Source: Bacillota bacterium (lineage in GTDB: Bacteria > Bacillota > Dehalobacteriia > UBA4068). From it: a stretch of DNA of 64,000 bases. Both the position numbers and the translations under genes were made by a program. Positions within the stretch are counted from its first letter, which is position 1. The number at the start of each line of letters is the position of its first letter. The stretch spans positions 6,357-70,356 of the forward strand of contig JAVBKT010000017.1 in NCBI GenBank assembly GCA_031553915.1. Direction: 5' to 3'. Under the pieces are notes generated by a model. That model ran no database searches. It was given only the letters and a program-made list of their open reading frames with translations, and was not told where the DNA came from. Shown piece by piece: positions 4,659-38,242 of this stretch.

Positions 4659-5330
4659 ATGGCAGGAAAGGGAAGTAGCGAATGGGCAAATCCGGCGCCG
4701 GCAGGACTGGTTGCTTTGGCTGTTGCCTGTTTCACGTTTTGCGCCTTGAATTTGGGGCTGGTTGATGCAGGAGCAATCCCGTTACTTGGTATTTGGCTTT
4801 TGGGCGGTTTTATTGTCCAGTTGGTCGTGGCAATCATTGAGCTGCGTGAGAGCAACATCTTGGGCGGTAATGTCTTCACCTTTTTTTGCGCCTTTTTTAT
4901 GTTTGTCACCGGCGCAAGTTTGCTGTTTAAGTTTTGGATGTCGCAAATCGGCATTGTCCTTGACACGCGTATCGATGGCTGGGCTTGGATTGTGCTGGCA
5001 GTGACTTTGGTCACCTGGATGCCTGCTTATGTCAAGAATTCCAGTGCGCCGATGGCTTTGGTGGTAATAGTCTTGTCTTTAGTCTCTGTGCCTCTCACCA
5101 CAATTAAAGATTTGGGGCTGCTTACTAACCCCGAAACTTACGCTACTATCAGTACTATCATTGCCATCGGTTTTCTGGTTGCTGGTTGTTTGGCTATGTA
5201 TGTGGCAACCGGCACCATCTTGAACAGCACGATGGGCAAGGAAATTGTGCCAATGCCCGGACCGCTTTTTGCTAAGAAAAAGCAAGCAGTTCTTGACACC
5301 GGCGCAACAGCAATTGAAGAAACAGAATAA
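4659..5330 (+). CDS. SatP/GPR1/FUN34/YaaH family acetate uptake transporter
   Basis: N-terminal ANPAPAGL signature; about six hydrophobic segments. Confidence 0.85.
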   Translation: MAGKGSSEWANPAPAGLVALAVACFTFCALNLGLVDAGAIPLLGIWLLGGFIVQLVVAIIELRESNILGGNVFTFFCAFFMFVTGASLLFKFWMSQIGIVLDTRIDGWAWIVLAVTLVTWMPAYVKNSSAPMALVVIVLSLVSVPLTTIKDLGLLTNPETYATISTIIAIGFLVAGCLAMYVATGTILNSTMGKEIVPMPGPLFAKKKQAVLDTGATAIEETE

Positions 5331-7751: not shown

Positions 7752-8579
7752 GTGATACTATTGCAAACGAAACCTGCTTTGAATATGCAGTCCGTGCAGG
7801 CCACCATGTTGCTGCCCTTGTGGGGGCGGGCGGAATACAGCTTGCAGAACCCTGAGGTACTAAAGGACGATGAGGCTATCAATGATTGCGATTATGATTT
7901 TTCTGCGTTGGCAAAGTCCTTTGGCGAATATGCCGGTATCTGCTATATTGTCCGCGCCCGAAAGATTGATGATACTGTTCAGGCCTTCATCTCCAGGCAT
8001 CCAAACGCCACCATCGTTAATATCGGCGCTGGTTTGGATACCACCTTTTCCCGCGTGGATAACGGAAAAATCAAATGGTACAACCTCGACCTGCCTGATG
8101 CCATCGCTTTCCGTCAGACGCTGATTCCGGATTCCGAGCGCAATATATGTATAGCCAAATCATTTTTTGACATGACTTGGTTTGACGATATTGATTTCAA
8201 CAAAGATGATGGCATCTTTTTTGTTGCCGGGGGCGTGTTCCATTATTTTCGTGAGGATGAGCTGAAAGCTGTTGTTGCCGCAATGGCAACTCGCTTTCCC
8301 GCTGGAGAATTATATTTTGATACCGAATCCAAGCGGGCTCTTTCGGTTTCCAACCGTATGGTCAAAAGGACAGGAAACAAAAACGCCATGATGTATTTTT
8401 ATGTAAACGATGTAAACCTTCTGCAACAGTGGTCGCCGCAGATAGCAGAAGCTAGCTGCGAGCCATATTTCAAGGGCAGCGAAAAGAAGAAGAGCTGGTC
8501 ATTTGGCTCTCGGATGAGCATGACACTAGGAAATCTCTTTGGCATGGTGAAGTTTATCCAGATAAAATTTGCCTGCTAA
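7752..8579 (+). CDS. Class I SAM-dependent methyltransferase (leucine carboxyl methyltransferase/TcmP-like)
   Basis: TMLLPLWGRA, IVNIGAGLDT, WYNLDLPD; start uncertain. Confidence 0.8.
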   Translation: MILLQTKPALNMQSVQATMLLPLWGRAEYSLQNPEVLKDDEAINDCDYDFSALAKSFGEYAGICYIVRARKIDDTVQAFISRHPNATIVNIGAGLDTTFSRVDNGKIKWYNLDLPDAIAFRQTLIPDSERNICIAKSFFDMTWFDDIDFNKDDGIFFVAGGVFHYFREDELKAVVAAMATRFPAGELYFDTESKRALSVSNRMVKRTGNKNAMMYFYVNDVNLLQQWSPQIAEASCEPYFKGSEKKKSWSFGSRMSMTLGNLFGMVKFIQIKFAC

Positions 8580-12505: not shown

Positions 12506-14871
<2,366 letters not shown>

Positions 14872-29837: not shown

Positions 29838-30316
29838 TATCGTGGCAAAAAGAAATTATTGAAGAAATGCAAAAGGCGCCTAAGATTGCAGTCTTAGGCG
29901 CCGGTTCTGTTCTTTGTGGTGATGATGCGGCAGGGATGATTGTTGTAGAAAAACTAGAGCAATTAGCCGCAAACAAGCCAAATTTAATAACATTGGGCGG
30001 TAGTACCGCACCGGAGAATTTTATTGGCGTATTGCGTTCCTTTGCTCCGGATTTACTTATTTTTGTCGATGCCGCTTATATTGACGGTGAAGTCGGAGAT
30101 ATTGCTCTTATTGACGAGAATGATATTACCGGGCTTAATTTTTCTACCCATATGTTACCCTTTGGCGTGCTGCTGAGTTTTATCCGCGCAGAAATACAGT
30201 GCAAAATTAAAATTATAGGCATTAAACCGGGTAATATGGATTTTGGCACAGAGGCGTCATTAATCATTGTACGCGCTGCTGAACAAATCGTAGAGACCAT
30301 CAACGCCAATAGTTGA
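29834..30316 (+). CDS. hycI: Hydrogenase maturation endopeptidase (HycI-like)
   Basis: GDDAAG, APENF, FVDAA, STHMLP. Confidence 0.88.
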   Translation: MISWQKEIIEEMQKAPKIAVLGAGSVLCGDDAAGMIVVEKLEQLAANKPNLITLGGSTAPENFIGVLRSFAPDLLIFVDAAYIDGEVGDIALIDENDITGLNFSTHMLPFGVLLSFIRAEIQCKIKIIGIKPGNMDFGTEASLIIVRAAEQIVETINANS

Positions 30317-30340
30317 TGGTAAAATATAATTATAAGAAAT

Positions 30341-30378
30341 AATAACAGCTAATTAAAGAAATTTAATTAGCTGTTATT
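30341..30378. terminator. Bidirectional terminator between hycI and lexA
   Basis: AATAACAGCTAATTAAA-GAAA-TTTAATTAGCTGTTATT. Confidence 0.75.
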
Positions 30379-31021
30379 ATTTAAGCTTGCGGAAAAGACC
30401 AATAGGCTTACCAAGTATTTCCATATGATCAGTATAAATAGGCTGCAGGAGATGATTTTCCGGCTGCAGACGGAAACGGTTTGTTTCGCGATAAAAAGTT
30501 TTAACCGTAGCCTCATCATCAATACAGGCTACTACAACATCGCCGTTTCTGGCGCTATTAGTTTCCTCTACAATCAGCAAATCGCCATCTTCAATGCCAA
30601 CTTCAATCATGCTCTCGCCATTAACCCGCAGCATAAAAAGCTGTTTGTTAGAATTGACAAAATTAAGCGGTACCGGAAAATAATCTTCAATATTTTCTTC
30701 CGCATAGGCCGGCTGCCCGGCACTCACTTTACCAATGAGCGGGATATCGACTATTTCCTGCTTGGCAAGAGTTGAAGAGGAGGGGAGAGTGTCTTCAACA
30801 GGCCATTTGAGAACTTCCATGGCCCGTCTTTTCAAGGGGTCTTTGCGGATATAACCCTTTCTTTCCAATGCGTCAATATGAAACTGCACGCTCGAAGTGG
30901 AACTCAGGCCGACTGCCTGGCCAATTTCACGTACTGAGGGAGGATATCCCTTGGTTTTTATCTGAGATTTAATGTAGTCAAATATTTCAGCTTGTTTAGG
31001 GTTTAGATCAAAATAATCCAT
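30377..31021 (-). CDS. lexA: SOS repressor LexA
   Basis: GYPPSVREIG wHTH, AG cleavage site (VSAGQP), catalytic GESM and ATVK; GGAGG RBS before ATG 31021. Confidence 0.96.
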   Translation of the reverse strand: MDYFDLNPKQAEIFDYIKSQIKTKGYPPSVREIGQAVGLSSTSSVQFHIDALERKGYIRKDPLKRRAMEVLKWPVEDTLPSSSTLAKQEIVDIPLIGKVSAGQPAYAEENIEDYFPVPLNFVNSNKQLFMLRVNGESMIEVGIEDGDLLIVEETNSARNGDVVVACIDDEATVKTFYRETNRFRLQPENHLLQPIYTDHMEILGKPIGLFRKLK

Positions 31022-31077
31022 ATTTCCACCTCCATAGAACAATCTATACTCATTATAGCACATCTTTTGCAAAAAGC

Positions 31078-31150
31078 AAACATTTGTTCATAAATTTTTC
31101 TTGACAAGGAACAAATGTTTGGGTATAATGCAAATATGGAACAAACGTTC
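31078..31150 (+). promoter_or_regulatory. Consensus SigA promoter of yneA with three Firmicute SOS (LexA) boxes
   Basis: TTGACA(31101)-17bp-TATAAT(31124); GAAC-N4-GTTC-type boxes at 31078-31089 (AAACATTTGTTC), 31109-31120 (GAACAAATGTTT) and 31139-31150 (GAACAAACGTTC). Confidence 0.9.
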
Positions 31151-31173
31151 ACGTATTAGTGGAGGAGTATGAT

Positions 31174-31476
31174 ATGAAAAAATCAATTAAAAGGCCAAGA
31201 AAATTGCGTTGTTTAATGGCGATAATTGCCTTTAGTTTGGTTGTCGTTTTAATGGTGTCCGGTTTTTCGGCACAAGCAGATGCCAATAATTTTACTAGTG
31301 AAAGAAAATTTACACCGGTATATGTGGTTTCCGGTGATACGCTTTGGAGCCTTGTGGAAGAGTATTATGATTATCAAGGGGATATCCGTAAGGCTATTAA
31401 TGAAGTGAAGAAAATAAACAATCTTGATAACGCCTCGATTCAGCAAGGGCAAATTATTTATATACCGGAAGCATAA
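31174..31476 (+). CDS. yneA: YneA-like SOS cell-division inhibitor (TM + LysM)
   Basis: Divergent from lexA; N-terminal TM; LysM motif VVSGDTLWSL...INNL...IQQGQIIYIP. Confidence 0.85.
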   Translation: MKKSIKRPRKLRCLMAIIAFSLVVVLMVSGFSAQADANNFTSERKFTPVYVVSGDTLWSLVEEYYDYQGDIRKAINEVKKINNLDNASIQQGQIIYIPEA

Positions 31477-31492
31477 GCTGCGCAGACAGAGC

Positions 31493-32971
31493 ATGTTTGT
31501 CAATACTTATTTCTTCTTTGTTCCTAATCGCTTAGTATGGGAACATTGGCAGCAGTTTATGGGTGAAAACACTGATTCTGCTTGGATTCCTCAGGTTGAA
31601 TATGAGATTCCTCAAATTGTTTCTCCAGCTGGTGGCTGGACTGTTGGTACTATTGCTGATTATTTTGGTATTCCTACTGGTGTTGCTGGTCTCTCTGTGT
31701 CGGCTCTTCCTTTTAGAGCCTATGCTTTAATTATGAATGATTGGTTTCGTGATGAAAATCTATCTAATCCTTTGAATATACCTGTTAATGATACTACTGT
31801 TACAGGTGTTAATAGTGGTGTTTTTGTTACTGATGTAGTTAAAGGCGGTAAGCCTTATATAGCTGCTAAATATCATGATTACTTTACATCTTGTCTTCCT
31901 GGTCCCCAAAAAGGCCCTAATGTGTCTATCGGTCTTGCTGGTGATGTACCTGTCTTTGGTAATGGACAGCAGCTTGGTTTAGTATCTAAAACTTTACCCG
32001 TTGGTGGATCTACACAGTATCTTGGTCTCGCTGGTACTACTGATAGTAAAATTGGTTTATCTGGTAGTGTGAATAATGAAATTGGATCTTCTATAAATTC
32101 TGGTGCTATGTATGCAAATCGTGCATCTGGTGTACCATCAAAAGAAATGTTAGATTTCGCTGATTATCCTTATGAACAAACTGGTCTTGTCGCTGATCTT
32201 GGTCTTGCTTCTTCTATCTCTGTTAATTCTCTTCGTCTTGCTTTCCAAATTCAAAAGTTATATGAGAAAGATGCTAGAGGAGGCACTCGCTATATTGAAT
32301 TACTTAAGGCTCATTTTGGTGTTACTTCTCCTGATGCTCGTCTCCAGCGTCCTGAATATCTTGGCGGAAATCGTTTGCCTATTAATATTAATCAGGTAGT
32401 GCAAAATTCTGAAACTGCTGAAACTCCTCAAGGTAATGTTGCTGGTTATTCTGTTACTACTGATACTCATAGTGATTTTACTAAATCTTTTGTTGAACAT
32501 GGCTATATCATTGGTGTTGCTGTTGCTCGCTATACTCATACGTATCAGCAAGGTTTACAACGCTTCTGGTCGCGGAAAGATCGTTTTGATTATTATTGGC
32601 CTGTCCTTGCTAATATTGGTGAACAGCCTGTCCTTAATAAAGAGATATATGCTCAAGGTAATGCTACTGATGATGAGGTTTTTGGTTACCAAGAGGCTTG
32701 GGCTGATTATCGTTATAAACCGTCTATTGTTACTGGTGAAATGCGTTCTCAATATGATATGTCGTTGGATTCTTGGCATCTCGCGGATGATTATGCTGCG
32801 CTTCCTATGCTTTCTAGTACTTGGATAATAGAGGATAAATCGAATGTTGATAGAACTTTAGCTATACAGAGTTCTATATCTAATCAATTTTTTGGTGATT
32901 TTTTCTTCCAGTGCAAAACTACTCGGCCTATGCCTATGTATAGTATTCCTGGGCTAATTGATCACCACTAA
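31493..32971 (+). CDS. Microvirus major capsid protein VP1, 5'-truncated but open
   Basis: FFFVPNRLVWEHW..FMGEN, ALPFRAYALI.NDWFRDENL, HDYFTSCLP.PQKG, DARGGTRY.E, RLQRPEYLGG, FGYQEAWADYR, RPMPMYSIPGLIDH; the usual N-terminal segment before this motif block is absent. Confidence 0.93.
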   Translation: MFVNTYFFFVPNRLVWEHWQQFMGENTDSAWIPQVEYEIPQIVSPAGGWTVGTIADYFGIPTGVAGLSVSALPFRAYALIMNDWFRDENLSNPLNIPVNDTTVTGVNSGVFVTDVVKGGKPYIAAKYHDYFTSCLPGPQKGPNVSIGLAGDVPVFGNGQQLGLVSKTLPVGGSTQYLGLAGTTDSKIGLSGSVNNEIGSSINSGAMYANRASGVPSKEMLDFADYPYEQTGLVADLGLASSISVNSLRLAFQIQKLYEKDARGGTRYIELLKAHFGVTSPDARLQRPEYLGGNRLPININQVVQNSETAETPQGNVAGYSVTTDTHSDFTKSFVEHGYIIGVAVARYTHTYQQGLQRFWSRKDRFDYYWPVLANIGEQPVLNKEIYAQGNATDDEVFGYQEAWADYRYKPSIVTGEMRSQYDMSLDSWHLADDYAALPMLSSTWIIEDKSNVDRTLAIQSSISNQFFGDFFFQCKTTRPMPMYSIPGLIDHH

Positions 32972-32983
32972 GGAGTGATTTTA

Positions 32984-33070
32984 ATGGATACTATTAAAAA
33001 AGTTTTTAAGGTGTTTATTTGGTTTATGCTTATTATGTGTGTTTTTTATCTTCTAGGTTTGCTTTTATAA
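32984..33070 (+). CDS. 28-aa single-TM phage peptide (MDTIKKVFKVFIWFMLIMCVFYLLGLLL)
   Basis: Translated by hand; AGGAG RBS overlaps the VP1 stop; its TAA overlaps the AAGGAGG RBS of VP2. Confidence 0.7.
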   Translation: MDTIKKVFKVFIWFMLIMCVFYLLGLLL

Positions 33071-33082
33071 GGAGGTTAAATT

Positions 33083-33961
33083 ATGGCTGTTTATCAAGCC
33101 GGTTCTGATGGTAATGCGCCTTCTGGTTTAAATCCCGGTGATTATGTTAATACTAATGGCGGTATGTATATGGTAGCCTCTCCTGGTGCTTATGGTTCTA
33201 TTTATAATCCGTCTTCTGGTTATTGGTCTGTTAAGGCTGATGGTTCTAGTCAGGTTTCTAATCAATCTTATTTGCAGTCCGCTCTTAATGCTGCTTCTAC
33301 TGTTGCTGAGTCTAATACTGATAGGTCTCAAGATATGGCTCGTGAGCAAATGGGCTTTCAAAAAGAGCAAAATGCTAGAGCTATGGCTTTTAATTCTGAG
33401 GAGGCACAAAAAAATCGTTCTTGGCAGGAAATGATGTCTAATACTGCTCATCAAAGAGAGGTAAAAGACTTAATTGCTGCTGGTATTAATCCTATTCTTA
33501 CTGCTACTGGAGGCAGTGGTGCTGCTGTAACATCTGGCGCCACTGCTTCTGGTGTTACTTCTTCTGGTGCTCAAGGTCAAGTGGATACGTCTTATAATAA
33601 TCTTGTTGGTGGTCTTATTTCTACGATGCTGAATAATCAGACATCTTTGGATATAGCAAAGCTGCAGGCTGGTATTCAGCAATATGTTGCTGATTCTAAT
33701 CGTCAAGCGACGCTCGGTGCTGCTGGTACTTCTGCTGCGGCATTGCTTGGAGCTGCTAATATTAATTCTGATACTTCCAAGTATATTAACCAACAAACTT
33801 TGGATCGTCCTAATTCTGTTGGTGGTATCGCTCGCCGTGGTTTAGAGTCTCTTAGTGAACTTATTGATAGTGGAATTAATTCTGCAAAAGGTTTGTTTTC
33901 TGGTTTTAATTGGAATGCTATTGCCGGCGGTCGTGATCTTACTGCCGGTAAAAAAAAGTGA
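33083..33961 (+). CDS. Microvirus DNA pilot protein VP2 (H-like)
   Basis: AQKNRSWQEMMSNTAHQREVKDLIAAGINPIL hallmark; Ala/Gln/Ser-rich coiled-coil; AAGGAGG RBS. Confidence 0.88.
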   Translation: MAVYQAGSDGNAPSGLNPGDYVNTNGGMYMVASPGAYGSIYNPSSGYWSVKADGSSQVSNQSYLQSALNAASTVAESNTDRSQDMAREQMGFQKEQNARAMAFNSEEAQKNRSWQEMMSNTAHQREVKDLIAAGINPILTATGGSGAAVTSGATASGVTSSGAQGQVDTSYNNLVGGLISTMLNNQTSLDIAKLQAGIQQYVADSNRQATLGAAGTSAAALLGAANINSDTSKYINQQTLDRPNSVGGIARRGLESLSELIDSGINSAKGLFSGFNWNAIAGGRDLTAGKKK

Positions 33962-33971
33962 AAAAAATTTG

Positions 33972-34026
33972 ACCGGCTTTGCCGGTTATGTCATGGGGCC
34001 CCATTCTTCTCTTGATGTAATGGGGC
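33972..34026 (+). other. Putative rolling-circle origin hairpins of the microvirus
   Basis: Stem GCCCCATT/AATGGGGC around loop CTTCTCTTGATGT (CTTGAT core, as at the phiX174 nick site); a second hairpin ACCGGC-TTT-GCCGGT. Confidence 0.6.
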
Positions 34027-34074
34027 TAAGTGACACCAAATTACCTAAAACAGAGTAGAGGAGGTGAGAACCTT

Positions 34075-34902
34075 GTGTCTTGTTATCATCCTCTGAAAGG
34101 TTTTCAGATTGGTCTTACCCCTTCGGGTAAGCCTGATTATAAAATAGTTTCTTATGATACTGATCATGTTGAAATTAAATTTAATGGTAGTGCAGATGCT
34201 TGTCCGTCGGCCACGCGCTCCGCTTATGCCAGACGTATTGTGACTGACTTTATCGAGATTCCTTGTGGTAGGTGTATTGGTTGTCGTCTTGATTATTCTA
34301 GACAATGGGCAGATAGGTGTATTCTTGAAATGAAAGAACACGATTCCAGTTATTTTGTTACTATCACTTATGATGATGAACATTTGCCCTTGCGTTCTTG
34401 GGTTGATACTGAGACTGGTGAATGTGGTAATGTTTCTACTTTGTTAAAGCGAGATTTCCAATTGTTTATGAAGCGTCTCCGTAAAGCTTATTCTCTTAAA
34501 TATTCTAATCCTTTGCGCTATTTTGCAGCAGGTGAATACGGTAATACTACTTTGCGTCCTCATTATCATGCTATAATATTTGGTTTAATTCTTGATGATC
34601 TTCAATTCTATAAAACATATAATGGATTTAATTACTATAATTCTGCGTTCTTAGATTCCTGTTGGCAAAATCGAGGTTTTATTGTCGTAGCAAAGGCATG
34701 TTGGGAGACGTGTGCTTATACTGCTCGTTATATCATGAAAAAACAAAAAGGAAATTCTGCTAGTGTTTACGAATATTATAATTTAGAACCCGAGTTTTCA
34801 TTGATGTCTAGAAAACCCGGAATAGGCCGTAGTTATTTCGACAAAAACGCCGATAATATATATTATGTTGAGTTGATATGTCTAAAAGATATCGCCAGTT
34901 AA
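34075..34902 (+). CDS. Microvirus replication initiator VP4 (HUH endonuclease); C-terminus runs through dif
   Basis: SCYHPL start after AGGAGGTG; PCGRCIGCRL; motif I FVTITY; motif II RPHYHAIIF; motif III YTARYIMKK; MSRKPGIG. Confidence 0.93.
   Translation: MSCYHPLKGFQIGLTPSGKPDYKIVSYDTDHVEIKFNGSADACPSATRSAYARRIVTDFIEIPCGRCIGCRLDYSRQWADRCILEMKEHDSSYFVTITYDDEHLPLRSWVDTETGECGNVSTLLKRDFQLFMKRLRKAYSLKYSNPLRYFAAGEYGNTTLRPHYHAIIFGLILDDLQFYKTYNGFNYYNSAFLDSCWQNRGFIVVAKACWETCAYTARYIMKKQKGNSASVYEYYNLEPEFSLMSRKPGIGRSYFDKNADNIYYVELICLKDIAS
34846..34873 (+). other. dif site (XerC/XerD-type), probable chromosome dimer-resolution site and prophage attR
   Basis: AACGCCGATAA-TATATA-TTATGTTGAGT has the 11-6-11 dif layout; gene orientation converges here. 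Confidence 0.85.
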
Positions 34903-35127
34903 AAGCATATTCTTTGACCCTTCCCTTTTTTAGTATATTATTTTATTGGTAACTACTAGAATAATATATTTATATTAGACCTTATTCATACTGTAGTGGC
35001 GTATATATATTAAGGGTAATAGCTTACCCTATGTTGTGGGGGCAGTTTTCCCCCGCCAGGTTCAGGCCTACTTACTGCACAATTATTATAATTGATAATG
35101 GGATTATGTCTATATTTACCTCTATCT

Positions 35128-36456
35128 TTATTGTTCAATTAACTGGCCGTAGAGGTTCCAAGTTTTTGCCTCAGTAATTTTGATTTGCACTAAGCTGCCG
35201 GAAGACAGCTCTCCTGCACCGGCAAAGGCCACAATTTTATTGCCGCTGGTGCGCCCGCACAACATATTATTGTTGTTTTTACTGATACCATCAACCATTA
35301 CTTCTTGTATGCTGCCCACGAGAGCCTGGTTTATTTGCAAGCTGATCGGGTTTTGTATATCCATTAACTCTTGCAGCCTTTGTTTTTTCACTAGTGAACT
35401 TAAATGCCCATCCATGTTAGCGGCTGTGGTACCGCTGCGTTTTGAATATAAAAAAGTATATGCCGCATCAAACCCGGCAGCTTTGATAAAGGCAATTGTC
35501 TCAGCAAAATCAGCGTCGCTTTCACCGGGAAAACCAACAATCAGGTCAGAGGTAATTGTTGCCTTAGGCGCTGTAGAGCGAATAATGCTCAGTTTAGAGA
35601 AATACTCCGCTGTGGTGTAGCCCCTATTCATTAGTTTTAAGATACGGTCTGAGCCTGATTGTACGGGCAAATGATAATGGTCGCATACTTTGTCCAGGCT
35701 GGCAATAGTCTCGGCCAAATAACGGTCAAAATCACGCGGGTGTGATGTCATATAGCGGATGCGATGCAGACCGCTGATATCGTTAATAGCAGTGAGCAAG
35801 CGGGCAAAATTCCAGCCGAGCTCAGGTATGTCTTTTCCGTAGGAATTGACATTTTGGCCTAAAAGCTGTATCTCCTTAATGCCGCCATCTGCCAGGCGTT
35901 TAATTTCGTCAATAATTTCTTGTGGTTGACGGCTGCGTTCTTTTCCCCTCACATAAGGCACAATGCAATAGCTGCAATAATTATTACAGCCAAAATTAAT
36001 ATTGATTTGTGCTTTATAATTATGCTCAAAATTATCATAGACTGCTGATAATTCCGGCCTGTCATAGCGCTCCTCAGTATCAACAATCCTTTGGCCATCC
36101 AAGTCATATTGTTCGATATATTGCGGCAGCAAAGCACTGGCAAAGGTGCCGATAATAATGCCGATATGGCGATATTTATCCATAAAAAGCTTGGCGACGC
36201 CATCTTTTTGCACCATGCAGCCGCACACAGCTATAATCAACTGAGGATTTACTTGTTTGAGATGTTTGATGCTGCCAATGAAGCCTAGCGCCCTGTTTTC
36301 GGCACTCTCGCGAATGCAGCAGGTATTAATGATAATAATATCTGCTTTTTCTACTGAATCACAAGCAATATGCCCTGCTGAATTAAGCATTGAGGACATA
36401 ATATGGGAATCATTTTCATTCATTTGACAACCAAAGGTTTGAATAAAATATCGCAT
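35128..36456 (-). CDS. miaB: tRNA methylthiotransferase MiaB
   Basis: TFGCQMN, NTCCIRE, CNNYCSYCIVP, C-terminal TRAM domain. Confidence 0.95.
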   Translation of the reverse strand: MRYFIQTFGCQMNENDSHIMSSMLNSAGHIACDSVEKADIIIINTCCIRESAENRALGFIGSIKHLKQVNPQLIIAVCGCMVQKDGVAKLFMDKYRHIGIIIGTFASALLPQYIEQYDLDGQRIVDTEERYDRPELSAVYDNFEHNYKAQININFGCNNYCSYCIVPYVRGKERSRQPQEIIDEIKRLADGGIKEIQLLGQNVNSYGKDIPELGWNFARLLTAINDISGLHRIRYMTSHPRDFDRYLAETIASLDKVCDHYHLPVQSGSDRILKLMNRGYTTAEYFSKLSIIRSTAPKATITSDLIVGFPGESDADFAETIAFIKAAGFDAAYTFLYSKRSGTTAANMDGHLSSLVKKQRLQELMDIQNPISLQINQALVGSIQEVMVDGISKNNNNMLCGRTSGNKIVAFAGAGELSSGSLVQIKITEAKTWNLYGQLIEQ

Positions 36457-36469
36457 ATTGCCTTCTTAA

Positions 36470-38242
36470 TTATTTTGTAGCGCGGAAATCCACAACCTGT
36501 AAGCGTGGGGTTTCCTTGCCATTATAGATATTCACATGCAGTGAATAGATTATGTCTATTTTTACGGTATCTCTTCTCTGCCCTGCCAGCAATTCCTGCC
36601 AATATCTGGCGGGATAATTGTCTTCGATATATGCCTTGAGCTTGTCTTTTGCGGAGAAATCCACAAATTCAGCCAGGTGCCCGGCAGTATCTTTCATTAA
36701 TAACCGCATCACCTGCTCTTCTTTACCAAAGAGAACTATTTTCTCAATGGAAAGGTTTTTGGCAGCCAAAAGCGGCGCAGGATTACTTTTGCCATATGGA
36801 GCCAGCAGGTTTAGCTCTCTGGCCAATTGCAAAGAGGCAAAGGTTGGCTGCAGCGGACAATCAATACGGAATACCTGCTGTATATCATCATCGCTCAGCT
36901 CACATAAAGCATTGATTTTTTGCCGGAAAACATCTACTTTGGCACGTTCAATAGTCAAGCCGGCAGCCATAGGATGCCCGCCAAAAACAACTAAAAGATC
37001 CCGGCACGAGCTTAGCCCTTCAAAAATATTATAGCAATCAATGGAGCGGCAGGATCCGTGTACAATATCAGTTTTGCCTGCCAACACTATTACGGGCTTA
37101 TGATATTTTTCTTTAATCCGTCCGGCGATGATGCCGGATACGCTTTCAAAGAAATCCGGAGAATAGATAACCACTATTTTATCCTGATCCAGATGGTCCT
37201 CGGCAATGATTTCAGAAGCCAGATTAGCGCCGTCCTCTGTCAGTTGGCGGCGCTGTTTGTTCATCCCCACTAATTCTTGTGCGATATTAGCTGCTGTGTC
37301 ATCATCCTCTGTTAAAAGCAGCTCAACGGATATATCAGCTGTTTCCAGGCGCCCGGACGCATTGATGCAGGGACCAAGCACAAAGCCTATGTGAAAGACA
37401 TCCAGTTCTTTGTCTTGCAAATCAGTGGCCTGTAATAAAGCCTGCAGGCCACTGATGGGGCTGTTTTTAATCAGCGGCAGACCTTTTTGTACCAATAAGC
37501 GGTTCTCCCCTGTCAAATCTACTAAATCGCAAATGGTAGCAATAGTCACCAGGGGTAAAAAGTATTCATTGAGGCTATTCCAAGGCTGATTAAGGCGTTG
37601 ATACAGTGCCTCGGAAAAGCGGTAACAAAGCGCTGCTGCGCAATATTGTTTGTATGGATATGGGCAATCGCTTCTTTTGGCATCGACCACAGCCAAAGCC
37701 GCAGGCAATCGCTCGCCCGCTTGGCTGCCTTCATCTTCTTTGATTAGGCCGTGGTGGTCAAGGATAATAATATCCATACCAATAGACATAGCATAATTCA
37801 CTTCATCAAAAGCAGAAATACCGTTATCACAGGCAATAATTAAATCAAAACCATCATCTCTCAGCATGGCGATCGCCTCTTTATTGAGGCCGTAGCCTTC
37901 TTCCCTGCTGGGAATATAGTATTCAATCTCGCCGCCCAAATTTTGGATTGATTTATAAAGAATAACTGTGCTGGTGATCCCATCCGCATCATAATCACCA
38001 TAGATCACAATGCGCTGACCATTTTTTAGAGCGTTAATTGTGACTGATACGGCTTTGTCCATATCGGCAAAAGCAAATGGATCGGCTAAGGGAGTATCCT
38101 CCCTAGTAGTAAAAGCGGCAATTTCGGCCGGGGTTTGATAACCACGCACCGCAAGAATACGCGCCAAAACAGGAGAAACTCCTGATTGGCGCGCTAATTC
38201 TTCAACATTAGTGGTCGTTTGCCGCAGCATCCATTTTGCCAT
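36470..38242 (-). CDS. recJ: ssDNA exonuclease RecJ
   Basis: YGDYDADG, LDHH, INASGRL, GGHPMAAG. Confidence 0.95.
   Translation of the reverse strand: MAKWMLRQTTTNVEELARQSGVSPVLARILAVRGYQTPAEIAAFTTREDTPLADPFAFADMDKAVSVTINALKNGQRIVIYGDYDADGITSTVILYKSIQNLGGEIEYYIPSREEGYGLNKEAIAMLRDDGFDLIIACDNGISAFDEVNYAMSIGMDIIILDHHGLIKEDEGSQAGERLPAALAVVDAKRSDCPYPYKQYCAAALCYRFSEALYQRLNQPWNSLNEYFLPLVTIATICDLVDLTGENRLLVQKGLPLIKNSPISGLQALLQATDLQDKELDVFHIGFVLGPCINASGRLETADISVELLLTEDDDTAANIAQELVGMNKQRRQLTEDGANLASEIIAEDHLDQDKIVVIYSPDFFESVSGIIAGRIKEKYHKPVIVLAGKTDIVHGSCRSIDCYNIFEGLSSCRDLLVVFGGHPMAAGLTIERAKVDVFRQKINALCELSDDDIQQVFRIDCPLQPTFASLQLARELNLLAPYGKSNPAPLLAAKNLSIEKIVLFGKEEQVMRLLMKDTAGHLAEFVDFSAKDKLKAYIEDNYPARYWQELLAGQRRDTVKIDIIYSLHVNIYNGKETPRLQVVDFRATK

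What the first reader, a model, noticed from the sequence alone, without database searches (positions are those of the whole stretch)
34846..34902. dif/att site lies inside the Rep (VP4) reading frame, so integration would swap the Rep C-terminus
Seen: the site AACGCCGATAA-TATATA-TTATGTTGAGT is read in frame as N-A-D-N-I-Y-Y-V-E. Rep stops 9 codons after the site (LICLKDIAS*), shortly after SRKPGIG, where related Reps usually continue. Inference: attP is dual-coded within rep. Integration would replace the native C-terminus with a host-encoded tail and could switch replication off without a repressor; excision would restore it.
Basis: partly seen in the sequence, partly recalled or inferred. 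Interest (0 to 1): 0.82.

Follow-up and report, generated by a model that had tools for sequence, protein, structure and literature searches.

The report
Dead microvirus fragment fused to dif
The site is the bacterium's own chromosome-resolution site (dif), and a broken, non-excisable piece of a small single-stranded-DNA phage is fused to it inside the phage's replication gene, so this is a scar of phage integration and not a working on/off switch.

Summary
The 28-bp dif-type site is at 34846-34873, it is read in frame by the phage Rep (VP4) ORF, and Rep stops 9 codons later, about 65-70 residues short of its relatives.

The site is the host's own dif:
- It is the only full match in the 1.72-Mb assembly.
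- It sits at the GC-skew switch.
- It lies where two same-genus genomes without the phage have their dif, between yneA and miaB.

The phage DNA is a 3.4-kb dead arc: VP1 lacking about 75 N-terminal residues, VP2, and Rep lacking its C-terminus. There is no second att site. The missing arc (Rep C-terminus, small ORFs, VP5, VP3, VP1 start) was not found in the assembly. Two dif-flanked relatives keep attP in non-coding DNA and have full-length Rep.

Rep similarity runs into the dif core. In 108 relatives, the same rep codons form a weak dif look-alike.

Best reading: XerCD, or microhomology, recombined this cryptic rep site with dif, and a later deletion removed attL. A reversible Rep switch is not supported at this locus.

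One lead remains open. Two other Reps (P0032, P0121) end within a codon of the same position, and their DNA could not be fetched.

The parts
30377..31072 (-). Host lexA.
   Evidence: Pfam Peptidase_S24 (E 1.1e-35) and LexA_DNA_bind (E 2.8e-24). The same gene lies on the same side of dif in G012 and G010.
31159..31476 (+). Host yneA-like LysM gene (SOS cell-division suppressor type). Its stop codon at 31474-31476 directly abuts phage DNA.
   Evidence: Pfam LysM. NCBIfam YneA NF010723 scores 56.9 bits, just under the cut-off of 60. The C-terminus aligns with the G012 and G010 homologues, which are followed by 73 and about 138 nt of spacer before dif.
31477..31486 (.). Left junction between host and phage. 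No dif-like site is here, and the host spacer and attL are missing.
   Evidence: VP1 similarity starts at about 31486-31490. The best other dif match in the window is 13 of 18 and lies far away.
31487..32971 (+). Gokushovirus major capsid gene VP1, lacking about 60-75 N-terminal residues.
   Evidence: Pfam Phage_F E 8.9e-156, matching profile positions 62-501 of 501. PHROG 514 matches positions 76-519 of 531. Aligned with five full-length VP1s.
33083..33961 (+). VP2 DNA pilot protein, an intact ORF.
   Evidence: PHROG pilot-protein families with E down to 3e-21. tblastn matches to the VP2 of relatives. Same position as the annotated pilot gene in OM869699.1 and MZ089776.1.
34030..34902 (+). 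Rep (VP4) ORF; the ATG form starts at 34075 and gives 275 aa. The HUH motifs are present and the last 65-70 residues of the family are missing. The ORF is fused in frame to dif.
   Evidence: Pfam PF23343 E 1.2e-16. PHROG 942 E 6.9e-99, matched through residue 279 of the ORF. Alignments A1 and A2. The nearly invariant C-terminal positions Y282, E329, L339 and R341 (P0002 numbering) are absent.
34846..34856 (+). XerC-side arm of dif. The outer 3-4 bases are rep codons (K-N, as in P0002). The inner CCGATAA is identical to the genus dif.
34857..34862 (+). Central 6-nt spacer, the expected crossover region.
   Evidence: It differs from the G012 spacer at 1 of 6 positions.
34863..34873 (+). XerD-side arm of dif, identical in all 11 positions to G012 and G010.
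34874..34902 (+). Host-derived flank that supplies the last 9 codons and the stop of the fusion ORF.
   Evidence: The 30 nt right of dif match G010's right flank at 15 of 30 positions in ungapped register (shuffle p 0.004). G012 matches at 13 of 30 (p 0.11). Both.
35128..36456 (-). Host miaB, the gene right of dif as in G012 and G010.
   Evidence: NCBIfam TIGR01574 scores 468 bits against a cut-off of 355. Synteny.

Best explanation
The 28-bp site is the chromosome's functional dif at the replication terminus. A gokushovirus once integrated there through the host XerC/XerD recombinases, as known dif-integrating microviruses do.

What remains is a dead 3.4-kb arc of its circle: VP1 without its N-terminus, VP2, and Rep without its C-terminus. 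The right end of this arc was made by recombination between dif and a cryptic dif-like stretch inside rep. That stretch is encoded by the conserved motif D-x-I-Y/F-x-x-D/E.

This could have happened in either of two ways. The integration crossover itself may have used the cryptic site, or a later Xer-mediated partial excision may have joined the cryptic site to attR. Either route removes the Rep C-terminus, small ORFs, VP5 and VP3 as one piece. Either route leaves a hybrid site made of the rep-derived outer XerC arm and the host XerD arm, which still serves as dif.

A separate ordinary deletion of a few hundred bases then removed the host spacer, attL and the start of VP1. That locked the fragment in place. 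The truncated Rep with its 9-codon host tail is a by-product, not a regulatory device.

Shown: the identity of the site, the anatomy of the fragment, the absence of the missing arc from the assembly, and the cryptic resemblance. Inferred: Xer catalysis and the order of events.
For: The site is the host dif:
- GC skew is positive from about 3 kb to 35 kb and negative after that, with the cumulative maximum in the window 34001-36000.
- It is the only 18-of-18 match to the genus dif in 1.72 Mb.
- In G012 and G010, lexA, yneA, dif and miaB lie in the same order without phage. Their dif sites differ from this one at 4 and 6 of 28 positions and have an identical XerD arm.
- XerD and XerC genes are present.

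The phage DNA is a dead fragment:
- VP1 matches only profile positions 62-501 of 501 and 76-519 of 531.
- Rep lacks 65-70 residues.
- The genome has only one Phage_F match.
- tblastn with the C-terminal parts of P0002, P0003 and P0020 gave nothing better than E 0.03.
- The missing genes form one contiguous arc in the closest annotated circular genomes.

The join lies in the dif core:
- Rep residues K-N just left of the core match P0002.
- The right flank resembles G010's host flank.
- The 12 residues across the join resemble the aligned Rep residues of 10 relatives. Only 0.04% of random window translations score as high.

The cryptic site exists in relatives: in 108 distinct relatives the aligned 28 nt match 7.5 of 16 dif positions on average, against 4.3 for the background. 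53% reach 8 or more, against 5% of background.

The canonical pattern is seen in relatives: L102 has a weak-XerD-arm site at 155 and a full dif at 5192. L168 has a full dif at 2788 and a weak-XerC-arm site at 7898. Both flank VP1-VP2-Rep-VP5-VP3.

XerCD dependence of gokushovirus integration and its reversibility are shown experimentally in PMC7062461 (passages read).
Against: - No direct evidence of Xer catalysis exists. A microhomology-mediated deletion at the same look-alike stretch would give the same sequence.
- The best cryptic sites in relatives reach only 11 of 16 positions. It is untested whether Xer would act on them.
- The nearest relatives (66-76% identical Reps, P0002-P0012) are known only as proteins, so the ancestral rep sequence at the join is unknown.
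- The four residues beyond the XerD arm (L-I-C-L) also resemble Rep weakly (p 0.023). A crossover in the spacer does not predict this; I treat it as chance.
- Both junctions sit flush against functional host elements, the yneA stop codon and the dif core. My two-step model does not specifically predict this.
- All three phage ORFs are free of stops, so the events are recent or the ORFs are kept for some reason.
- The assembly is 98.6% complete and in 20 contigs, so the absence of the missing arc is not absolute.
Confidence: 0.55

Rival explanations
1. In this phage lineage the regular attP lies inside rep, dual-coded with Rep residues. Every integration then splits rep and swaps its C-terminus for a host tail, which silences replication, and excision restores it. 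Under this model the window holds such a prophage that later lost its left part.
For: - The join is in frame, and Rep-like residues run across the whole dif core.
- One integration at the rep site plus one left-hand deletion explains the anatomy with the fewest events, because the missing genes form one arc.
- Phage att sites of dif-integrating microviruses can have one weak arm (L102 attL; PMC7062461 passages), so a modest rep-internal site might suffice.
- PMC7062461 reports dif motifs at gene ends and in the VP4 N-terminus.
- P0032 and P0121 are 72% identical and both end one codon from the same position.
Against: - No attL is present, and no Rep C-terminus was found in the assembly, so no switch can operate here.
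- Of the 161 loci fetched with the window's Rep or its alignment from viral contigs, genomes other than L103 and metagenomes, none stops Rep within 5 codons of this position.
- None of 108 distinct relatives has more than 11 of 16 dif positions there.
- The two relatives with both att sites mapped have a non-coding attP and an intact Rep.
- No other protein among 5.8 billion shares enough words with residues 240-290 to be a second copy of this fusion.
- The tail of P0032 and P0121 (L-L-R) is not what this dif encodes in that frame.
Confidence: 0.12
2. No Xer step was involved at the rep end. A canonical prophage decayed by ordinary RecA-independent deletions, or a linear phage fragment was captured at a break. 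The right-hand deletion ended at dif through the short identity between rep (GATAA plus an AT-rich run) and the dif core. Deletions that went further were lost because cells need dif.
For: - The left junction is clearly not site-specific: there is no dif-like sequence, and it sits flush with the yneA stop codon. Illegitimate deletion therefore did occur in this locus.
- The cryptic rep stretch offers only 5-10 nt of identity, which suits microhomology joining.
- Other microvirus scars and broken Reps exist in Bacillota genomes: L103 is an orphan Rep C-terminal half, and L092 has a frameshifted Rep.
Against: - The join falls inside a 25-nt core and leaves a perfect dif in all 18 genus-conserved positions. 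That is what a Xer crossover produces by design, and it is only one of many outcomes for a random deletion.
- The lost stretch corresponds to what lies between the cryptic site and the attP position seen in L102 and L168.
Confidence: 0.22
3. The arrangement is an assembly chimera: a free phage and the host chromosome were joined wrongly at a shared AT-rich dif-like word.
For: - The genome is a metagenome assembly.
- The only run that holds the stretch may be its source.
- A related microvirus is present in the same run. A 92-nt piece at 31518-31609 has double depth, and a 5393-nt contig matches parts of VP1.
Against: - In Logan's separate assembly of that run, one contig crosses the left junction (30900-31547) and another crosses the right junction (31580-35500).
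- Both contigs have 0 differences and the same depth of 10.8.
- A chimera would not explain a VP1 cut at its N-terminus and joined to the yneA stop codon.
- Both assemblies draw on the same reads, so this is not independent proof.
Confidence: 0.03

Closest known systems
Enterogokushovirus prophages of Escherichia (EC6098 and relatives; Kirchberger and Ochman 2020, PMC7062461; passages read)
   Same: Both are gokushoviruses without an integrase, integrated at the chromosomal dif through host XerC/XerD. One flanking site is close to the bacterial dif and the other is more degenerate. The paper notes dif motifs that overlap gene ends, including the VP4 N-terminus.
   Different: Those prophages are complete (4.3-4.7 kb), flanked by two dif motifs, excise continuously, and have the gene order VP4-VP5-VP3-VP1-VP2-VP8. 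Here the host is a Bacillota MAG and only a 3.4-kb arc is left. There is a single site, and the break is about 65-70 residues from the C-terminus of VP4.
Complete dif-flanked gokushovirus prophages found here in other bacterial contigs (L102, L168)
   Same: They share the gene order VP1-VP2-Rep, the orientation relative to dif, and, in L102, a full dif at the right end.
   Different: Their Reps are only 35-42% identical to the window's and are full length (335 and 312 aa). VP5 and VP3 are present. Both att sites are present and lie in non-coding DNA between VP3 and VP1.
Alpavirinae proviruses of Bacteroidetes (BMV1-7; Krupovic and Forterre 2011, PMC3091885; passages read)
   Same: They are Microviridae proviruses without an integrase, flanked by dif-like repeats and proposed to use XerC/D. 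One (BMV7) is partial and lacks part of rep.
   Different: They belong to a different subfamily and host phylum. BMV7 is partial because it lies at a contig end, not because of a join to dif.
Xer-exploiting filamentous phages of Vibrio (CTX, VGJ, TLC), as cited in PMC7062461 and PMC3091885; the details are recalled
   Same: They are mobile elements that borrow XerCD and dif. Their hybrid att sites can be functional or dead for further recombination, so integration can be irreversible.
   Different: They are unrelated viruses (Inoviridae). Irreversibility there comes from the structure of attP, not from loss of attL and half the genome.

Membership tests
Bacterial chromosomal dif site (XerC/XerD target) | 28 bp, with two 11-nt arms around a 6-nt spacer and partly palindromic inner arms. 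| tested here: met
   The inner arms ATAA / TTAT are mirrored. The 16-nt core also matches on the minus strand with 2 mismatches.
Bacterial chromosomal dif site (XerC/XerD target) | A single copy per chromosome. | tested here: met
   It is the only 18-of-18 match in the 20-contig, 98.6%-complete assembly. The next best is 15 of 18.
Bacterial chromosomal dif site (XerC/XerD target) | Located at the GC-skew switch, that is, the replication terminus. | tested here: met
   The cumulative GC skew peaks at 34001-36000. The sign changes there, as does the prevailing gene strand.
Bacterial chromosomal dif site (XerC/XerD target) | Conserved in sequence and position in related genomes. | tested here: met
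   G012 and G010 have sites that differ at 4 and 6 of 28 positions, lying between yneA and miaB. The fetched pieces of G009 and G011 gave no site; those genomes are 73% and 83% complete.
Bacterial chromosomal dif site (XerC/XerD target) | The host encodes XerC and XerD. | tested here: met
   XerD (TIGR02225) scores 335.7 bits against a cut-off of 329.6. XerC (TIGR02224) scores 334.8 against 335.15 on a slightly cut ORF.
Bacterial chromosomal dif site (XerC/XerD target) | Bound and recombined by XerCD. | not testable with these tools
   This needs EMSA or an in vivo recombination assay.
dif-integrated microvirus prophage (an element that exploits Xer) | Microvirus genes, with no integrase of its own, adjacent to dif. 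| tested here: met
   VP1, VP2 and Rep are the only phage genes between yneA and dif.
dif-integrated microvirus prophage (an element that exploits Xer) | Flanked by two dif-like sites (attL and attR). | tested here: not met
   There is only one site. The best other match in the 64-kb window is 13 of 18 and lies kilobases away.
dif-integrated microvirus prophage (an element that exploits Xer) | A complete genome able to excise and replicate. | tested here: not met
   VP1 lacks its N-terminus and Rep lacks its C-terminus. VP5 and VP3 are absent from the locus, and the Rep C-terminus was not found in the assembly.
Gokushovirus VP4 / HUH rolling-circle Rep (PF23343, PHROG 942) | Family profile match, with the conserved HUH and tyrosine motifs. 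| tested here: met
   PF23343 E 1.2e-16 and PHROG 942 E 6.9e-99. The invariant H-Y-H and Y-x-x-R-Y-x-x-K-K columns are kept.
Gokushovirus VP4 / HUH rolling-circle Rep (PF23343, PHROG 942) | Full length, with the conserved C-terminal part (P-P-R/K-Y-Y motif and basic end). | tested here: not met
   The protein is 275-290 aa against 325-375 aa in 117 of the 120 best hits. The nearly invariant positions Y282, E329, L339 and R341 are missing.
   There is no attL, and no Rep C-terminal coding sequence was found in the assembly.
   None of 161 relatives with DNA stops Rep within 5 codons of this position. P0032 and P0121 do end there, but their DNA context could not be fetched.

The most novel reading that the evidence does not exclude
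A lineage of gokushoviruses (the window's phage, and perhaps the P0032/P0121 group) may carry its working attP inside rep, at the boundary between the catalytic part and the C-terminal part. Lysogeny would then split rep by design and shut off rolling-circle replication without a repressor, and XerCD excision would rebuild it. The window would be a decayed example of this design.
Probability: 0.12. Interest if true: 0.7.

Novelty: new member of a known kind. Interest (0 to 1): 0.35.

Why it matters
The locus shows that dif-integrating gokushoviruses, demonstrated experimentally only in enterobacteria, have also left integrations at dif in Bacillota. This window does, as do the complete prophages in L102 and L168.

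It also shows how such an element can end as a locked scar: a cryptic dif look-alike inside rep offers a second crossover point that destroys the phage while preserving the host's dif. This bears on why microvirus prophages are rare and often partial.

If the bolder reading were true, it would be a repressor-free lysogeny control for a phage with five or six genes. As it stands, the locus is an informative but ordinary decay product.

Tried and rejected
**Looking for the same phage in free or empty-site form.** One run holds the stretch and it may be the source. Its contigs show only the integrated form. No conclusion about absence is drawn from this.

**Looking for a second copy of the fusion.**
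- A word search with residues 240-290 returned only the window's own protein.
- Among the 150 best of 19566 representatives, three are short at the C-terminus: P0121, P0151 and P0256.
- P0121 and P0032 share the same end.

**dif-like sites in free relatives.**
- The best scores in the 80 viral contigs equal those of shuffled sequence.
- The two closest annotated circular genomes have no site matching all 10 specified positions.

**Other ideas considered and dropped.**
- The phage replication origin might lie at this rep codon, as the origin lies inside gene A in the phiX174 group (recalled). I dropped this because the nucleotides there vary freely among relatives.
- The whole dif plus 11 nt beyond it might be phage DNA. 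I rejected this because the right flank resembles G010's host flank and the XerD arm is identical to the genus dif.
- The left junction might be a second Xer site. I rejected this because there is no XerD-arm match.

**Negative searches.**
- Rfam found nothing in 30000-36500.
- No solved structure matches the Rep profile by sequence.
- Rep was not found in the 30 other genomes of the host family.

**Limits on the literature.** They may hold cases of dif inside VP4 that bear on the rival model. I did not search the literature for a dif motif in the 3' part of VP4, so I make no claim that it is absent from print.
Full report
**1. Observation**

ORF 34030-34902, whose ATG form starts at 34075 and gives 275 aa, reads it as N-A-D-N-I-Y-Y-V-E. 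The ORF runs on for nine codons and stops at 34900-34902.

The ORF is a microvirus replication initiator:
- Pfam PF23343, E 1.2e-16.
- PHROG 942, E 6.9e-99, matched through residue 279.

It is short for its family. Of the 120 best database hits, 117 are 325-375 aa. The exceptions are the window's own protein P0001 (275 aa), P0032 (282 aa) and P0075 (303 aa).

**2. The site is the host's own dif**

Four lines of evidence agree.
- **GC skew.** It is positive from about 3 kb to 35 kb and negative beyond, and the cumulative curve peaks in the window 34001-36000. The prevailing gene strand flips there too.
- **Uniqueness.** Scored on the 18 positions conserved in the genus, the site is the only 18-of-18 match in the 1.72-Mb, 20-contig assembly. 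The runner-up scores 15.
- **Synteny.** Two same-genus genomes, G012 and G010, carry lexA, a yneA-like LysM gene, a spacer of 73 or about 138 nt, a dif site and then miaB, in the same order and orientation. Neither has phage genes. Their sites differ from the window's at 4 and 6 of 28 positions. They share the inner XerC-arm motif CCGATAA and all 11 bases of the XerD arm. The fetched pieces of the other two same-genus genomes (73% and 83% complete) gave no site.
- **Recombinases.** The genome encodes XerD (335.7 bits, cut-off 329.6) and a XerC-type protein (334.8 bits, cut-off 335.15, on a slightly trimmed ORF).

**3. The phage DNA is a dead arc**

The order from left to right is as follows.
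- Host lexA at 30377-31072 on the minus strand, and host yneA-like at 31159-31476.
- Directly after the yneA stop codon comes the major capsid gene. It starts at about profile position 62 of 501 (Pfam) or 76 of 531 (PHROG 514). Alignment with five full-length VP1s puts the start of similarity at about 31486.
- An intact pilot-protein gene, VP2.
- The truncated Rep, then dif, then host miaB.

No second dif-like site lies near: the best other match in the window is 13 of 18. The host spacer seen in the relatives is gone.

The assembly holds only one capsid match. tblastn with the C-terminal 80 residues of three relatives found nothing better than E 0.03.

In the two closest annotated circular genomes, OM869699.1 and MZ089776.1 (about 60% Rep identity), the order is capsid, pilot, Rep, small ORFs, non-structural protein, scaffold. 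Everything the window lacks is therefore one contiguous arc of the circle, about 1.7 kb of about 5.1 kb.

The element cannot excise and could not replicate or build a capsid if it did.

**4. Where the join lies**

- The two codons just left of the conserved dif core (K-N) match the closest relative, P0002, so they are phage.
- The 30 nt right of the XerD arm match G010's right flank at 15 of 30 positions in register (shuffle p 0.004). G012 matches at 13 of 30 (p 0.11). That flank is therefore host.
- The join thus lies within the roughly 25-nt core.

The 12 residues read across the core and just beyond (A-D-N-I-Y-Y-V-E-L-I-C-L) resemble the aligned residues of 10 relatives. Only 0.04% of random translations of the window score as high.

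Much of this follows from what dif itself encodes in that frame. A relative's dif in L102 reads H-N-I-Y-Y-V-K. So the real finding is that the conserved Rep motif D-x-I-Y/F-x-x-D/E and dif look alike at the DNA level.

I tested this directly. In 108 distinct relatives, the 28 nt aligned to the site match 7.5 of 16 scored dif positions on average, against 4.3 for all positions of the same genomes. 53% reach 8 or more, against 5% of background. None exceeds 11. So rep carries a cryptic, weak dif look-alike at exactly this codon, but none of the relatives I could read carries a real one.

**5. What integrated relatives look like**

Scans with the Rep or its alignment returned 80 viral contigs, 12 genome contigs and 80 metagenome contigs.

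Two loci are complete prophages with both att sites mapped.
- **L102:** a site with a good XerC arm and a weak XerD arm at 155, then VP1, VP2, Rep (335 aa), VP5 and VP3, then a full dif at 5192.
- **L168:** lexA-like gene, a full dif at 2788, the same five genes (Rep 312 aa), then a site with a weak XerC arm at 7898.

In both, attP is non-coding and lies between VP3 and VP1, and Rep is whole. Other contigs with host flanks also have full-length Reps: L093, L094, L105, L118 and L121.

None of the 161 loci examined stops Rep within five codons of the window's break. L092 has a Rep that is frameshifted further downstream, at the P-P | K-Y motif. L103 is an orphan C-terminal half of a Rep. Microvirus scars therefore do occur in Bacillota genomes.

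**6. Mechanism**

Published work shows the following (passages of PMC7062461):
- Gokushovirus prophages integrate at dif through XerC and XerD.
- Both arms of the phage motif are needed.
- The prophages keep excising.
- dif motifs in phage genomes are mostly non-coding. Some lie at gene ends, and some lie in the VP4 N-terminus.

Bacteroidetes proviruses were proposed to integrate the same way (passages of PMC3091885).

Against this background, the simplest account of the window is a Xer-type crossover between dif and the cryptic site in rep. This could have been the integration event itself, or a partial excision between the cryptic site and attR of a canonical prophage. If the canonical attP lay between VP3 and VP1, as in L102 and L168, both routes converge on attL, VP1, VP2, truncated Rep and a hybrid but fully functional dif.

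One further ordinary deletion of a few hundred bases (host spacer, attL, leader and about 75 VP1 codons) then gives the present state and makes it stable.

The identity of the site and the anatomy are shown. The catalysis and the order of events are inferred. I put this at 0.55.

**7. Rivals**

- **Microhomology deletion without Xer (0.22).** It gives the same sequence. The plainly illegitimate left junction favours it. The perfect preservation of dif counts against it.
It needs the fewest events and fits the in-frame join. It has no support from any relative with known DNA, and no switch can work at this locus.
- **Assembly chimera (0.03).** It is unlikely because contigs of a separate assembly of the run cross both junctions at the same depth of 10.8. 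That assembly uses the same reads, however.

**8. Open lead**

P0032 (282 aa, from a 4930-nt contig) and P0121 (268 aa) are 72% identical (192 of 268). Both end ...I-L-L-R, one codon from the window's break. Two diverged proteins with the same end are not random contig breaks.

This lineage may have a naturally short or split Rep, a shared frameshift, or the same kind of join. I could not reach their DNA.

At the least, this suggests the break sits at a boundary within Rep. The missing part does carry nearly invariant residues: Y282, E329, L339 and R341 in P0002 numbering. I therefore expect the truncated protein to be impaired, but this is untested.

**9. Verdict**

The reversible switch is not supported.

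The locus is a new, decayed member of a known kind, the dif-integrated microvirus. Its modest added interest is the cryptic dif look-alike in rep and the evidence for such integrations in Bacillota.

Noticed in passing
window 31060-31160 and 31476-31700: The yneA promoter matches the consensus at 12 of 12 positions and is surrounded by three GAAC-N4-GTTC-type palindromes that look like LexA boxes (the motif is recalled). The phage ORFs now follow yneA directly, without the spacer seen in the relatives. They may therefore be transcribed after DNA damage. Only weak terminator-like hairpins lie at 31685-31720.
   Followed up: partly
P0032 and P0121 (protein ids; no DNA): These two Reps are 72% identical and both end ...I-L-L-R, one codon from the position where the window's Rep leaves the family. 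They may represent a naturally short or split Rep lineage, or the same kind of join.
   Followed up: partly
L092:8760-9070: The Rep of a prophage in a Peptostreptococcaceae MAG stops after ...F-K-P-P and continues in another frame with K-Y-F-D-K... to a normal end, so it carries a frameshift within the conserved P-P-K-Y-Y motif. Representative P0256 also ends at ...R-P-P.
   Followed up: partly
L092:7686-7726 and 12745-12822; L227:3938-4084: The L092 prophage is flanked by 35-40-nt repeats of the type ACTATTCC...TTTAGGAATAGT. Similar inverted motifs fill the non-coding stretch after rep in the free relative OM869699.1. This may be a second kind of attachment or origin region that is not dif-like.
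   Followed up: no
L103:7393-7845: An orphan C-terminal half of a microvirus Rep (about residue 213 to the normal end) lies between host-looking ORFs in a Bacillota MAG. None of the other phage genes I searched with (VP1, VP2) matched in the 15.6-kb locus.
   Followed up: partly
L168:1865-2815; L093:6393-8089; L094:11679-12725: In other Bacillota contigs with gokushovirus prophages, a LexA-like gene and/or a Xer-like tyrosine recombinase gene lies within a few kb of the prophage, as lexA does in the window. I judged the gene identities by eye from the N-terminal sequences and did not search them.
   Followed up: no
window 31518-31609 and 32330-32695 (run X1): A 92-nt unitig inside VP1 has twice the depth of its neighbours. 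A 5393-nt contig of depth 13.2 matches two short parts of VP1 at 80-90%. A related, probably free, microvirus is therefore present in the same sample.
   Followed up: no
L101:514-8642: One 10.5-kb contig carries two successive VP1-VP2-Rep sets. This may be a tandem prophage or a concatemer.
   Followed up: no
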